Shown here: one piece after another, positions 42,654 through 45,774 of the stretch
How the letters are laid out: each line of letters starts with the position of its first letter
How positions within the stretch are numbered: position 1 is the stretch's first letter
The notes under the pieces: generated by a model
Database searches by the model: none
What the model was told of the DNA's origin: nothing
The model's input: only the letters and a program-made list of their open reading frames with translations
Assembly: GCA_038893355.1 (NCBI GenBank)
Contig: JAWARQ010000004.1
Coordinates: 122,577-186,576 of the forward strand
Source of the DNA: Sulfolobaceae archaeon
Lineage (GTDB): Archaea; Thermoproteota; Thermoprotei_A; Sulfolobales; Sulfolobaceae
Direction of reading: 5' to 3'
Length of the DNA: 64,000 bases
Program-made: the position numbers and the translations under genes

Positions 42654-42830
42654 ATGAGAGTGGTAACATTTAAGTTGGAAGAAGACCTACTGGAGCTATT
42701 AGATAGATATGCTATTAGATATGGATTAAATAGGTCAGAAGCAATAAGAAAGGCAATAGAAACTCTGGTTAAATCGGAGATGGAGAAGGAGAGAGTTCCA
42801 TTAGCTAAGGTTGAAAAGCTCAGATTATAA
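42654..42830 (+). CDS. aCcr1: RHH cell-cycle regulator, aCcr1 family (58 aa, not in ORF track)
   Basis: [58 protein letters not shown] matches the Sulfolobales aCcr1 pattern as recalled. Confidence 0.85.
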
Positions 42831-43443
42831 GAATAGTTTTATTTTCCAAACTATCTTCTTCTATAGTTTTATTTTCTGCTATCTTTATTATTTTCCAACC
42901 TTTCATGACATTTAGAAAATCTTCTATAGTATCTAATGGCATGTAATGCCCATTTATCCAATAATGAATTGGTAAGACGATCTTAGGGTTTAACTCATCT
43001 ATAATTTCCCTAGCTTCTATATAATTAATTGTAATTACTCCCCCTACTGGTATTGCGAGTAAATCTGGATTCCTTAACCTTTCCCTAAGCTCGTCACTAA
43101 GCTTATGCCCCAAATCGCCTAAATGTACTAACTTTTTACCTTTAGGAGTTATTATTTTATATATAACATTATCTCCTCTTCTCCTACCCTTTTCCTTATC
43201 ATGATAAGTCTTAAACCCAAATATTGTATAGTTATTTATCGAGAAGTTTTCCATAGCTTTAATTTTTACTAATGGCGAACCCTTCGCTATTTGATACGCG
43301 TCATGGTCGTAATGATTATGAGTTATTAGAATAACTTTTGGAGATATTTGTGGTACAGTAAGTCCAATACTTTTACCATCATGAGGATCTATACAAATTA
43401 CTTCATCTATACAAACTAGTGAATGTAAAAAATATTTTATCAT
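42820..43443 (-). CDS. MBL-fold metallohydrolase
   Basis: [30 protein letters not shown]. Confidence 0.9.
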
Positions 43444-44611
43444 CTAGTAGTAGTTTGAGATTGTTCTAAAATATATAACGCTATCCTTTTAGCATCTTCA
43501 ACACTAATTTTCTTACCACTATCAGCCAATTTCTTTATTTCATTCAATACATACCTTAATTGATTTTCATTCAAATATATACCCTGCTCTTCTAATAATT
43601 TCTTTAATCCATGAATTCCACTATGTTTACCTAGTGCAATTCTTCTAAAATTCCCTACTTCTTCTGGTGACATTGGCTCATATGTTAACGGATTCTCTAT
43701 GACACCGTGTACATGAATCCCCGATTCATGACCAAATGCGTTATCACCTACTATTGCCTTAAAGTAAGGTACTGGTACCCCCGTTAATTCTGAAACTAGC
43801 CTACTAGTTTCATATAATAAATAAGATTTTACACCAACTTCAAATCCTAATAACTTCTTTAAAGCCATAACAACCTCCTCCAGTGAAGCATTCCCTGCCC
43901 TCTCACCTATTCCATTAACAGTAACATGAACTTGTCGAGCTCCTGCTAATACTCCTGCAATTGAGTTTGCAGTTGCTAAGCCAAAATCGTTATGGCAATG
44001 AACACTTACTATCTTATCTGGACCTACAGTTTCAACAACCTTCTTAATTAAATTATGAAAAGCAAAAGGATGCATAACCCCTACAGTATCTGGAATATTT
44101 ATCCTATCAGCACCAGCCTCTAATGCAGTTTTAATAGCCCTCAATAAGAATGTCTCTTCAGATCTAGTAGCATCTTCTGGACTAAATTCTACTACTAAGC
44201 CATGAGCTTTAGCGTACTTTATTCCTTCATATATTCTCTCAAGCACCTGTTCTCTCGTCATCTTTAATTTATACTTCATATGAATATCAGATGTTGCTAT
44301 AAATAAGTGAATACTAGGTATACCAGTTTCTATGGTCTTGTCAATATCAGACTTTACAAGTCTCGATAGAGCTATCACCTCTACCTCGTCACCCACTTCC
44401 TCTAAAATCTTTCTCGTAGCTTCGAATTCACCTTCAGAGGAGGCAGGAAATCCAGCCTCTATTACATCTACTCCCAACTTTGCTAATTGCCTTGCTATTC
44501 TAACTTTTTGATCAACCGTTAAATCTATTTGTGGTGCTTGTTCACCATCCCTTAACGTTGTATCAAAAATTCTAACTCTTTTTGGGTTAGAGAATACTCA
44601 TCCCTGCTCAT
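43440..44611 (-). CDS. leuA: 2-isopropylmalate synthase, short form without regulatory domain; needs a -1 frameshift near 44580 from the ATG at 44611
   Basis: [14 protein letters not shown] lies upstream of the track's TTG start; [34 protein letters not shown]; frame bounded by TGA at 44600-44598 with no ATG/GTG/TTG before the motif. Confidence 0.88.
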
Positions 44612-45363
44612 GTTATTTGTAAGCCTCTAACTATTAAATATTTCGGTTATTAGTTCGTACATTTTATTTTTTCAAATTTTAATTATTATAATATTTTTAA
44701 ATAATAAGATAAAAAAATTATAATTCCTATATTAATAACCAAAATTATTTATCATAGAGTTATCGTATTTAAAATGTGAAATTCTTCTTTGTGTTTACCC
44801 ATGGCGTAACTTATGCTTACTTTTAATTACTTCTAATTCCGCCACGGGCACACCTCTTAGGGGATTATATACAGTCACCCCTAACTCATTGGGGCTAGTC
44901 GAGGGAAACGTCTATATAATAAACATGTCCATAATAAAGATACTAATTATTAGAAGTGATTAAAAGTAGTTAAAAGTTACGTAAATCTTTCACAGTATTA
45001 TCGCTTATCAGAAAGAAGTTTTCAGTTAGTAAAACAATCTTTCTTATATACTTCTAACTAACGTAAAAATGTAACGATTTTCCTATAAATGCTATTAATA
45101 AATATGTTGAGAAATGTGTGTAAGCTTCTACTATTTATGCGTCAAAGTCGTTCTCTTATATAAAACTTCACCTTATCTATCTATTATATTGTTTGAAATG
45201 GAAGAGAGGACCAATTCGGAAATAATTATTAATATAAAAATTAGAAATAACACCTAAGAGATTTAAAATTCCTAAAGTAAAAAAGATATATAATAATACT
45301 TAATTTCATCTAGCAATAAATAAAAAGTAATATTTTTATTATTCTTCTTTTTAGTGGCAAACT

Positions 45364-45774
45364 TCACTTTACTATAAGCACTGGAACTTTAGATTTGCTA
45401 AGAATTTCCGATGAGACACTACCTAAAATTACCTTCTTAAGTGCCGAAAGACCTCTACTTCCAGTTACAATTAGATTACAATTCTCTTTTTCACAAAATT
45501 CAACTATTGCGCTTGCAACATCATTTGATTCCAAAATTATTCCGTAACAATCAAAACCCTCTAAAAGCTGCATCGCTTCCCTCTGTATTTCCTTAGCCTT
45601 TCTCTCGCTTTCAATTATAACATGATCAGGGGATCTCTGTATTTCCTTAACTATTGTTAATATATAAATTTTATCTCCTTTTCTTATTATATTTTTAAGA
45701 AATTCTAATGCTTTTTTAGAACTTGGTGAACCATCATATGCTAATACTATTTTCATATAAGAGGGAGAAATCAT
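45364..45774 (-). CDS. Universal stress protein
   Basis: IVLAYDGSPSS.KAL, IVTGSRG.S......LGSVS, PVLIVK. Confidence 0.92.
   Translation of the reverse strand: MISPSYMKIVLAYDGSPSSKKALEFLKNIIRKGDKIYILTIVKEIQRSPDHVIIESERKAKEIQREAMQLLEGFDCYGIILESNDVASAIVEFCEKENCNLIVTGSRGLSALKKVILGSVSSEILSKSKVPVLIVK

What the first reader, a model, noticed from the sequence alone, without database searches (positions are those of the whole stretch)
44477..44640. leuA needs a -1 frameshift out of a Leu-containing 19-codon ORF: candidate leucine-sensing programmed frameshift
Seen: on the minus strand a TATA-like TTTAATA lies about 25 nt before ATG 44611, the geometry of a leaderless archaeal mRNA. That ATG reads [19 protein letters not shown]-stop (TAA 44554-44552) with Leu codons CTA, TTA and TTG. 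The LeuA frame ([20 protein letters not shown]...) is -1 relative to it, is closed upstream by TGA (44600-44598), and has no ATG/GTG/TTG until TTG 44477, which lies after the essential DTTLRDGEQ motif. The overlap holds two shift-prone runs close to Leu codons, C-CAA-AAA-GAG-TTA and GAA-TTT-TTG; a shift at either keeps DTTLRDG. Known: -1 frameshifting is documented in Sulfolobales (fucA1), and this short LeuA lacks the C-terminal Leu-feedback domain. Inference: stalling at hungry Leu codons could promote the shift, giving translational feedback control of Leu synthesis. A one-base loss in the A5 run (assembly error or recent mutation) would explain the sequence equally well.
Basis: partly seen in the sequence, partly recalled or inferred. 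Interest (0 to 1): 0.85.

Follow-up and report, generated by a model that had tools for sequence, protein, structure and literature searches.

The report
Conserved out-of-frame start of archaeal leuA
In this hot-spring archaeon and in all 43 related species examined, the leucine-pathway gene leuA lies one base out of frame behind a tiny Met-Ser-Ile-Leu mini-gene, so ribosomes probably have to slip forward one base, perhaps when leucine is scarce, to make the enzyme.

Summary
The 385-codon Sulfolobaceae-type isopropylmalate synthase frame is closed upstream by TGA 44600-44598. It has no ATG/GTG/TTG before TTG 44477, which lies past the DTTLRDGEQ motif. Two separate metagenome assemblies give the same sequence, so it is not an assembly error.

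A start in the frame of ATG 44611 (the frame needing -1) lies within 35 nt in only 19 of 44 family orthologs, and it is an ATG in 6.

What is conserved in 44 of 44 is a different ATG (44601-44599), one base upstream of the LeuA frame. It opens a 4-7 codon mini-ORF, M-(S/R)-(I/V/F)-L...stop (here ATG AGT ATT CTC TAA). The block NTT-CTY has TTCT invariant, while synonymous sites elsewhere in the gene are saturated. 25 of 44 orthologs have no canonical in-frame start. All 30 outgroup loci continue in frame at this point; 8 begin with the ATG.

Best reading (about 0.5): a family-wide +1 ribosomal frameshift at NUU_CUY, with the rare Leu codon in the A site. Leucine sensing is plausible (about 0.3) but untested. 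The main rival is non-canonical in-frame initiation with a regulatory mini-ORF. If the shift is confirmed, I know of no earlier +1 frameshift in a cellular archaeal gene; my searches found none.

The parts
44632..44638 (-). TATA-like box TTTAATA. Its 5' end is 37 nt upstream of the conserved ATG 44601.
   Evidence: Orthologs carry a TATA-like box 32-44 nt upstream of their conserved ATG (read by eye). Placing the transcript start at about 44608 is an inference from recalled Sulfolobus promoter geometry.
44552..44611 (-). TAA 44554-44552), in the frame that would need a -1 shift. It is not conserved as an ORF.
   Evidence: A start in this frame lies within 35 nt in 19 of 44 orthologs, and an ATG in 6 of 44.
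44602..44604 (-). GGG directly 5' of the conserved ATG. The two bases at -3 and -2 are G in 44 of 44, and -1 is G in 30 and T in 14. This may be a weak SD-like element or an initiator element.
   Evidence: The 16S rRNA 3' end of this genome is.
44587..44601 (-). Conserved mini-ORF ATG AGT ATT CTC TAA (M-S-I-L-stop). Its codons start one base upstream of the LeuA codons.
   Evidence: An ATG in this frame is present in 44 of 44 orthologs. Mini-ORF peptides are 4-7 residues long and contain (I/V/F)-L followed by 0-3 further residues before the stop.
44589..44595 (-). Proposed +1 shift site A-UUC-UCU. The 0-frame reads AUU CUC; the +1 frame reads UUC UCU.
   Evidence: TTCT is invariant in 44 of 44. 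The base before it is A in 32, G in 6 and T in 6. The base after it is C in 37 and T in 7. CTC is 4.0% of Leu codons; tRNA-Ile(GAT), tRNA-Leu(GAG) and tRNA-Ser(GGA) genes are present.
44598..44600 (-). TGA that closes the LeuA frame and overlaps the conserved ATG (ATGA).
   Evidence: The same overlapping TGA occurs in 21 of 44 orthologs.
43440..44597 (-). LeuA (isopropylmalate synthase) reading frame: 385 codons plus the stop TGA 43442-43440. The DTTLRDGEQ motif begins at GAT 44564-44562.
   Evidence: NF041069 IPMS_Sufob, 715 bits against a cutoff of 600; dN 0.14-0.25 with dS saturated.
44579..44583 (-).
   Evidence: identical in contigs of two runs; the tract is not conserved among orthologs, and the frame problem lies upstream of it.
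42820..43443 (-). Downstream MBL-fold gene (207 aa). Its ATG overlaps the leuA stop (ATGA), so the two genes are probably co-transcribed.
   Evidence: (PF13483). A homologous ORF follows leuA within 19 nt, or overlapping it, in 21 of 22 family loci.

Best explanation
leuA of this archaeon, and of every Sulfolobaceae-type ortholog examined, is translated from the conserved AUG at 44601. This AUG sits at or a few bases behind the 5' end of the mRNA and is one base out of frame with the enzyme. After Met-Ser-Ile, the ribosome holds tRNA-Ile(GAU) on AUU in the P site. The rare Leu codon CUC, read by the single tRNA-Leu(GAG), is in the A site.

If CUC is decoded at once, translation ends at the next codon (UAA) and only the peptide MSIL is made. 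If the A site stays empty, the P-site tRNA slips +1 from AUU to UUC. This keeps the A35-U pair and turns the G34-U wobble into a G34-C pair. UCU (Ser) is then read and translation continues in the LeuA frame, giving a 386-residue enzyme that begins [15 protein letters not shown].

Because the outcome depends on how fast Leu-tRNA(GAG) arrives, the site could raise IPMS synthesis when leucine is short. That would stand in for the allosteric Leu-binding domain this short enzyme lacks.

What is shown: the conserved out-of-frame AUG, the invariant block, the absence of in-frame starts, and that the gene is functional. What is inferred: that a +1 shift occurs, and that it occurs at NUU_CUY. What is speculative, and in my estimate about 0.3 overall: that leucine supply modulates it.
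For: (1) Of the 47 family genomes held, 44 have the ortholog. All 44 carry an ATG one base upstream of the LeuA frame: 42 as ATG-NNN-NTT-CTY, and 2 (genus g11) as ATG GGT AAT CGT ATT CTC TAG. Three further metagenome contigs show the same break; two carry the ATG and one a GTG.

(2) 25 of 44 have no ATG/GTG/TTG in the LeuA frame between the upstream stop and DTTLRDG. In 21 of 44 a TGA overlaps the ATG.

(3) TTCT is invariant in 44 of 44. This includes the third base of the LeuA-frame Phe codon TTC, although TTT makes up 73% of Phe codons genome-wide and the nearby RIF Phe codon is TTT in 25 and TTC in 8 orthologs. As a control, 0 of 21 amino-acid-invariant degenerate codons in the next 35 codons keep an invariant third base, and dS between genera is saturated.

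(4) The changes fit a dual reading. CTC to CTT is synonymous for Leu in the ATG frame but turns Ser into Phe or Leu in the LeuA frame. Codon 2 switches between AGT and TCA/TCT, which is Ser in the ATG frame. From the next base on, variation is synonymous in the LeuA frame (TCT/TCC/TCG).

(5) In all 30 distinct outgroup loci, the homologous first three codons (ATG, GTG or ATC, then x, then ATT) continue in frame with GCT or GTT, for example ATG AGT ATT GCT CCA. So the Sulfolobaceae ATG is the ancestral start, and the predicted product M-S-I-S keeps the ancestral pattern of M-x-I followed by a small residue.

(6) The block stays the same even where the ATG lies two codons further upstream (g11, L134-L136). 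This points to the block, not the ATG-N junction, as the functional site.

(7) The motif followed by a long +1 ORF occurs once in this genome, at leuA. The homocitrate synthase paralog has an ordinary in-frame ATG.

(8) CTC is a rare codon (4.0% of Leu). The tRNA set is ordinary, with no four-base decoder.

(9) Assembly error is excluded.
Against: No experimental data bear on this. No RNA run was available, and I saw no proteomic or Ribo-seq data.

The in-frame codon pair ATT-CTC is not avoided in this genome (63 observed against 44 expected). The heptamer is therefore not intrinsically very shifty and would need its context: early elongation, the GGG/GAGG just upstream, or tRNA shortage.

No conserved RNA structure accompanies it (alifold -0.14). 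The SD-like G-run lies 6 nt from the P-site codon and is only 3-5 nt long, which does not match the spacing I recall for bacterial RF2.

19 of 44 orthologs do have a canonical in-frame start (TTG/GTG 5 nt before the ATG in 12, GTG 4 nt after it in 6, a distant ATG in 1). Databases annotate those orthologs from these codons.

11 of 30 outgroup loci have ATC where the others have ATG or GTG. This gene lineage may therefore tolerate non-canonical initiation.

The mini-ORF has a single Leu codon, not a run of them.
Confidence: 0.5

Rival explanations
1. There is no frameshift. LeuA starts at an in-frame codon that differs between lineages: TTG or GTG where one is present, and a near-cognate such as ATT, ATA or ATC just before DTTLRDG elsewhere, as NCBI's pipeline annotates. 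The conserved AUG mini-ORF is then a competing or regulatory upstream ORF, possibly still leucine-responsive, or part of a protein- or RNA-binding site.
For: 19 of 44 orthologs have a canonical in-frame start. Database records begin at MRIFDTT, MLDTT, MKGCVFS or MVFSRR, that is at ATT, ATA or ATC codons read as Met. 11 of 30 outgroup loci have ATC at the start position, and 8 of those lack any canonical in-frame start. ATT-CTC is not an avoided codon pair.
Against: No near-cognate codon is conserved in position. In the window the only in-frame near-cognate is ATT 44570-44568, directly before the Phe-Asp of FDTT, and L012, L128 and L132 have GTC, GTA or GTT there. The commonest first codon after the TGA is GTA, which differs from ATG at two bases. 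No start codon lies near the mini-ORF stop in 25 of 44, so termination-reinitiation does not fit. This model does not explain why the ATG is never GTG or ATC in 44 of 44 when outgroups vary at that position. It also does not explain the invariant third base of TTC, or why the product predicted by the shift restores the ancestral M-x-I N-terminus.
Confidence: 0.28
2. One reading: translation starts at ATG 44611 on a leaderless mRNA and shifts -1 at CCAAAAAG or GAATTTTTG, stimulated by hungry Leu codons.
For: The ORF exists in the window. A TATA-like box lies upstream of it. -1 frameshifting is documented in Saccharolobus solfataricus fucA1 (PMC8211752 and PMC1616953; I read passages of the first and the abstract of the second in the listing).
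Against: A start in that frame lies within 35 nt in 19 of 44 orthologs, and an ATG in 6 of 44. 23 of 44 have no start in that frame at all. The homologous upstream start falls in different frames in different genera. The proposed slippery tracts are not conserved, and neither is an X XXY YYZ heptamer. No downstream structure was found. The predicted transcript start is at or after this ATG (inference).
Confidence: 0.03
3. The feature is an artefact or decay: a one-base assembly error, or a recently inactivated pseudogene.
For: The genome is a metagenome-assembled genome (17 contigs, 84% complete).
Against: Contigs of two runs from different studies are identical across the site. The same frame relation holds in 44 of 44 species, several of them single-contig genomes. 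dN is 0.14-0.25 with saturated dS, which shows purifying selection. The protein scores 715 bits on the curated IPMS model and keeps an intact catalytic motif.
Confidence: 0.01

Closest known systems
Autoregulatory +1 frameshift of bacterial release factor 2 (prfB)
   Same: A short 0-frame ORF near the start of the gene ends early unless the ribosome slips +1. The P-site tRNA re-pairs on an overlapping U-rich codon. A slow-to-decode A-site codon reports the supply of the pathway's own product. A G-rich SD-like element lies upstream. The prfB features are recalled; the general principle is described in PMC5009743 (passages).
   Different: Here the slow codon is a sense Leu codon and not a stop (a stop follows directly only in the window and in genus g11). 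The shift is at codons 3-4 of a nearly leaderless archaeal mRNA. The G-run is 6 nt, not 3 nt (recalled), from the shift codon. The sensed molecule would be Leu-tRNA, not a release factor.
Hungry-codon +1 frameshifting (yeast Ty1 shift site; amino-acid-starvation frameshifts in E. coli)
   Same: P-site slippage onto an overlapping codon while a rare or starved A-site codon waits. PMC5009743 (passage) describes 'hungry' codons and says that a slow A site matters more for +1 than for -1 shifts.
   Different: Ty1 uses a fixed shortage of a rare tRNA to set a ratio of two proteins. The starvation shifts seen in E. coli are errors. Here the shift would be the only route to an amino-acid biosynthetic enzyme, and the hungry codon specifies that pathway's end product.
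Antizyme +1 frameshift (polyamine sensor)
   Same: A +1 frameshift serves as both sensor and effector of a metabolic feedback loop (PMC8211752, passage).
   Different: Antizyme is eukaryotic and senses a small molecule directly at a stop-codon site with flanking stimulators. Its feedback sign is the opposite: the product induces the shift.
Saccharolobus solfataricus fucA1 -1 frameshift
   Same: Same family of organisms. According to the 2021 review it is the only accepted ribosomal frameshift in a cellular archaeal gene (PMC8211752, abstract and passages).
   Different: It is a -1 shift on an A-AAA-AAT heptamer with rare codons and a stem-loop, in mid-gene. The review says it is not known why its translation is regulated by recoding. 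The leuA case is +1, at the very start of the gene, and conserved in 44 of 44 orthologs across 12 genera.
Bacterial leu-operon leader-peptide attenuation
   Same: A tiny ORF containing Leu codon(s) lies ahead of leuA, and its translation rate could report Leu-tRNA charging (recalled textbook knowledge).
   Different: There is a single Leu codon, not a run. No terminator/antiterminator structure was found. The mini-ORF overlaps the enzyme's own coding frame, and control would act on the reading frame, not on transcription.

Membership tests
Sulfolobaceae-type isopropylmalate synthase (NCBIfam NF041069, IPMS_Sufob) | Whole-protein score above the curated cutoff | tested here: met
   715 bits against a cutoff of 600; residues 8-378 align to profile positions 1-370 of 371.
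Sulfolobaceae-type isopropylmalate synthase (NCBIfam NF041069, IPMS_Sufob) | HMGL-like catalytic barrel with the DTTLRDGEQ motif, an HCS_D2 accessory domain, and no LeuA_dimer regulatory domain | tested here: met
   PF00682 and PF22617 only; more distant relatives of about 500 aa carry PF08502; motif present.
Sulfolobaceae-type isopropylmalate synthase (NCBIfam NF041069, IPMS_Sufob) | Enzyme activity on 2-oxoisovalerate | not testable with these tools
   This rests on NCBI's 'equivalog' label. I did not see the underlying experiment.
Programmed +1 ribosomal frameshift | A start codon in the 0 frame, an early 0-frame stop, and the main ORF in the +1 frame with no start of its own | tested here: met
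   the ATG is present in 44 of 44; the mini-ORF peptide is 4-7 residues; there is no canonical LeuA-frame start in 25 of 44.
Programmed +1 ribosomal frameshift | A phylogenetically conserved shift site that allows the P-site tRNA to re-pair in the +1 frame | tested here: met
   N-TTC-TY with TTCT in 44 of 44. The re-pairing (A35-U, G34-C) is inferred from the anticodons GAT, GAC and GAA found.
Programmed +1 ribosomal frameshift | A slow-to-decode 0-frame A-site codon | tested here: inconclusive
   CTC is 4.0% of Leu codons; there is one tRNA-Leu(GAG) gene. But 7 of 44 orthologs use the commoner CTT, and tRNA abundance is unknown.
Programmed +1 ribosomal frameshift | The shift-prone sequence is avoided elsewhere in coding regions | tested here: not met
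   ATT-CTC is seen 63 times against 44 expected.
Programmed +1 ribosomal frameshift | A trans-frame protein product is detected | not testable with these tools
   This needs N-terminal mass spectrometry or a reporter.
   a start in that frame within 35 nt in 19 of 44; the tracts are not conserved, there is no heptamer, and no consensus structure.
Leader-peptide transcription attenuation | Tandem regulatory codons plus alternative terminator/antiterminator hairpins | tested here: not met
   one Leu codon; no conserved structure. The mini-ORF also overlaps the enzyme frame.
Termination-reinitiation coupling | A start codon of the downstream frame overlapping or next to the upstream stop | tested here: not met
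   no ATG/GTG/TTG in the LeuA frame between the block and DTTLRDG in any of the 44 ('down '), and none at all in 25 of 44.

The most novel reading that the evidence does not exclude
Across at least 12 genera of Sulfolobaceae, isopropylmalate synthase can be made only by a +1 ribosomal frameshift at codons 3-4 of its mRNA. The frequency of that shift is set by the supply of charged tRNA-Leu(GAG) at a rare CUC/CUU codon. This would be a translational feedback sensor for leucine built into the reading frame itself. It would replace the allosteric domain that the enzyme has lost, and my searches found no earlier +1 programmed frameshift in a cellular archaeal gene.
Probability: 0.3. Interest if true: 0.92.

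Novelty: new variant of a known kind. Interest (0 to 1): 0.8.

Why it matters
If the +1 shift is real, it is only the second ribosomal frameshift known in a cellular archaeal gene and the first in the +1 direction. The 2021 review, PMC8211752, lists only fucA1 (-1) for cellular genes. It would also be conserved over a whole family, which gives recoding research a tractable archaeal model in genetically accessible Sulfolobus and Saccharolobus strains.

If the Leu codon acts as a sensor, this would be a natural case of 'hungry-codon' frameshifting used as end-product feedback for an amino-acid pathway. That principle is so far known from release factor 2 and antizyme, but I know of no case for an amino acid.

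There is a practical side too. Annotation pipelines currently give this essential enzyme at least eight different N-termini, many of them truncated past the catalytic motif. A correct model would fix these.

Tried and rejected
- A tRNA with a four-base anticodon. ARAGORN without intron mode reported 'ctaa', but intron mode shows this is tRNA-Arg(CCT) with an intron. Rejected.
- A conserved RNA structure around the site. RNAalifold on 43 distinct sequences gave -0.14 and essentially no pairs.
- Avoidance of the ATT-CTC codon pair as a sign of shiftiness. It is not avoided. I report this as evidence against.
- A parallel device at the homocitrate synthase paralog. It has an ordinary ATG.
- Other genes in this genome with the same motif followed by a long +1 ORF. 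Only leuA was found; the genome is 84% complete.
- RNA evidence. No RNA holder was listed for the window. All four runs laid were contigs. X3 and X5 do not cover the site.
- DNA for the in-frame-looking relatives 'MVVFYPGRVRIF' (P0073-P0082) and 'MVVLLGAYEVWVFS' (P0042-48). It was not found among 301 order-level genomes or in the two collection scans, so I could not see how their 5' ends look. They are gene-caller products and may or may not keep the mini-ORF.
- Solved structures. None exists for this clade; the closest is 3rmj.
- Literature. Nothing links isopropylmalate synthase or leuA to frameshifting in archaea. Searches returned 0 papers. One search returned 2 unrelated papers. Searches gave listings only. 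Passages read in PMC8211752, PMC5009743 (first 300,000 characters) and PMC3711429 contain no mention. Supplementary tables are closed. Those of published Sulfolobus transcription-start maps, of the GeneTack clusters and of proteomes could bear on the claim, and I could not see them.
Full report
**What is in the window.** On the minus strand, ATG 44611 opens [19 protein letters not shown] and stops at TAA 44554-44552. The enzyme frame reads [20 protein letters not shown].... It is closed by TGA 44600-44598, runs 385 codons to TGA 43442-43440, and has no ATG/GTG/TTG before TTG 44477. The protein scores 715 bits on NCBIfam NF041069 (IPMS_Sufob, cutoff 600). It has the HMGL-like and HCS_D2 domains but no LeuA_dimer regulatory domain.

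**Not an artefact, not a pseudogene.** The window lies in a metagenome-assembled genome of 1.40 Mb in 17 contigs, 84% complete. A contig of run X1 (possibly the source, depth 14) covers 44350-44750. A contig of run X2 (a different study, depth 5.6) covers 44350-44660. Both show no difference and no gap. X3 and X5 do not reach the site. Against orthologs from other genera, dN is 0.14-0.25 while dS is saturated. The gene is under purifying selection.

**Comparison within the family.** The collection holds 47 species genomes of the family, including this one. 44 have the ortholog at E <= 1e-140. The misses are a 56%-complete genome, genus g9, and genus g2, which has only a 53%-identical homolog. 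I read all 44 5' ends: 23 loci and 21.
- All 44 carry an ATG whose codons start one base upstream of the LeuA codons. In 42 the form is ATG-NNN-NTT-CTY. In the two g11 loci it is ATG GGT AAT CGT ATT CTC TAG.
- The mini-ORF peptides are MSIL, MSILQA, MRILHG, MRILE, MSILG, MSILY(A/V/D), MSILWS, MSILHS, MSILCTE, MSILSW, MSFLC, MSVLH, MRFLR and MGNRIL.
- In the LeuA frame, 25 of 44 have no canonical start between the upstream stop and DTTLRDG. 12 have TTG or GTG 5 nt before the ATG. 6 have GTG 4 nt after it. 1 has a distant ATG.
- In 21 of 44 a TGA overlaps the ATG.
- Three more metagenome contigs show the same break; two carry the ATG, and one (L136) has GTG as the mini-ORF start.
- Named database proteins of this clade come from Sulfurisphaera, Stygiolobus, Sulfolobus acidocaldarius, Metallosphaera, Acidianus, Saccharolobus, Sulfuracidifex and Sulfodiicoccus. 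Their annotated N-termini disagree widely. They include ATT, ATA and ATC codons read as Met, and many truncations that remove DTTLRDG.

**Constraint at the nucleotide level.**
- In the block, GG at -3 and -2 of the ATG is invariant.
- TTCT is invariant in 44 of 44. The base before it is A in 32, G in 6 and T in 6. The base after it is C in 37 and T in 7.
- TTC is the LeuA-frame Phe codon, and its third base never varies. Yet TTT makes up 73% of Phe codons in this genome, and the Phe of R-I-F ten codons downstream is TTT in 25 and TTC in 8 orthologs.
- As a control, none of the 21 amino-acid-invariant degenerate codons in the following 35 codons has an invariant third base.
- The substitutions fit two frames being read. 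CTC to CTT is silent for Leu in the ATG frame but changes Ser to Phe or Leu in the LeuA frame. Codon 2 alternates between AGT and TCA/TCT, both Ser in the ATG frame. From the next base on, variation is silent in the LeuA frame (TCT/TCC/TCG).

**Outgroups.** I examined 30 distinct loci from other families of the order (33 listed, of which 3 are duplicates). In all of them the homologous GGG-AT(G/C)-NNN-ATT is followed in frame by GCT or GTT, for example ATG AGT ATT GCT CCA. None has the frame break. So the Sulfolobaceae ATG is the ancestral start, and the break is a shared derived trait of the family. A shift at ATT/CTC would give M-S-I-S..., which keeps the ancestral pattern of M-x-I followed by a small residue.

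In the frame of ATG 44611, a start codon lies within 35 nt in 19 of 44 orthologs, and an ATG in 6. The homologous upstream (A/T/G)TG, part of a conserved GGTGC-like element, falls in all three frames in different genera. The proposed slippery tracts lie in the variable, indel-rich linker. TATA-like boxes begin 32-44 nt upstream of the conserved ATG (by eye). With the recalled Sulfolobus promoter geometry, this puts the transcript start 2-17 nt before that ATG, at about 44608 in the window. ATG 44611 would then lie at or beyond the mRNA end. This last step is inference. I rate the -1 model at about 0.03.

**Mechanism proposed.** The mRNA is leaderless or has a short leader. In S. solfataricus 73% of mRNAs have a 5'UTR of 5 nt or less (PMC11698992, passages). 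Translation starts at the conserved AUG. With tRNA-Ile(GAU) on AUU (tRNA-Val(GAC) on GUU or tRNA-Phe(GAA) on UUU in other genera) in the P site, the A-site codon is CUC or CUU. Both are read by the single tRNA-Leu(GAG) gene, and CUC is only 4.0% of Leu codons. A +1 slip to UUC keeps the middle base pair and changes G34-U into G34-C. UCN is then decoded, and the enzyme frame follows. If Leu-tRNA arrives first, the ribosome terminates 0-3 codons later. This logic would raise IPMS output when leucine is scarce, and this enzyme has no allosteric domain. The re-pairing and the sensing are inferences; nothing here measures them.

**Evidence against, and the main rival.**
- The ATT-CTC pair is not avoided in this genome's ORFs (63 observed, 44 expected). 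The site would therefore need its context.
- No conserved structure accompanies it.
- The upstream G-run is short and lies 6 nt from the P-site codon.
- 19 of 44 orthologs have a usable in-frame start.
- 11 of 30 outgroup loci have ATC where others have ATG or GTG, and 8 of those lack any canonical in-frame start. Non-canonical initiation may thus be a habit of this gene lineage.
- The rival is lineage-specific in-frame initiation with the AUG mini-ORF acting as a regulatory upstream ORF. It remains at about 0.28. Its weak points are these. It offers no positionally conserved near-cognate codon. GTA differs from ATG at two bases. No start lies near the mini-ORF stop. It gives no reason for the ATG to be invariant in 44 of 44 or for the fixed third base of TTC.

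**Specificity.** A scan of this genome for the motif with a short 0 frame and a +1 frame of at least 150 codons finds only leuA. The homocitrate synthase paralog begins with an ordinary in-frame ATG behind a TATA box.

**Novelty.** The 2021 review of archaeal recoding states that only one programmed frameshift (-1, fucA1) has been reported in a cellular archaeal gene. It mentions +1 only for a haloarchaeal virus (PMC8211752, abstract and passages). Neither that review, nor the held first 300,000 characters of PMC5009743, nor PMC3711429 mentions isopropylmalate synthase or leuA. Three searches that paired isopropylmalate synthase, or a recalled locus tag for it, with frameshifting gave nothing relevant. 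Supplements were closed.

**Verdict.** My estimates are about 0.5 for a conserved +1 frameshift, about 0.3 for leucine sensing by it, and 0.8 for interest.

Noticed in passing
L237, L239, L240, L241, L242-L245, L247, L225, L226 (outgroup leuA loci, 5' ends): In 11 of 30 distinct outgroup loci, the codon homologous to the leuA start is ATC (GGG ATC YNT ATT GCT/GTT), about 31-36 nt behind a TATA-like box. 8 of these have no ATG/GTG/TTG in frame at all. This suggests AUC initiation on a leaderless mRNA, or another unrecognised device. In some of them (L241, L243, L244) a +1-offset frame reads (A/T)TG GGA TCY GTA TTG YTN, that is M-G-S-V-L-L...stop.
   Followed up: partly
window 42820-43443 (-), and the stretch downstream of leuA in L003-L022: A 200-215 aa MBL-fold protein (PF13483) follows leuA in 21 of 22 family loci. 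It either overlaps the leuA stop as ATGA (8 loci, including the window) or starts within 19 nt. This is a conserved two-gene unit whose link to leucine synthesis is unknown.
   Followed up: partly
Orthologs of genera g3, g4, g5, g8, g13, 10-17 nt upstream of the conserved ATG (window equivalent 44611-44605): A conserved (A/T)TGGTGC-like element sits where the transcript start is predicted. It may be an initiator element or the 5' end of the short leader. Its ATG, GTG or TTG falls in different frames in different genera.
   Followed up: partly
L005, L007, L009, L011, L006, L008 and relatives, between the shift block and VRIFDTT: Genera g6, g7, g10 and g12 carry a run of 6-7 A (TC[A/C/G]AAAAAAGT) in the linker, where the window has A5. 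Runs of this length are prone to slippage. No role is evident, because these genera already have the same +1 arrangement upstream.
   Followed up: no
window 42654-42830 (+) and 45364-45774 (-): The neighbours are a 58-aa ribbon-helix-helix (CopG-type) protein, convergent with the MBL gene, and a universal stress protein upstream of leuA.
   Followed up: no
Database proteins P0042, P0043, P0046, P0048: Metagenomic relatives (76-77% identical) are called with an in-frame N-terminal extension, MV(V/F)LLGAYEVWVFSTT..., rich in Val and Leu. A TGG would stand where others have the TGA. I could not obtain their DNA, so I do not know whether the mini-ORF persists there.
   Followed up: partly
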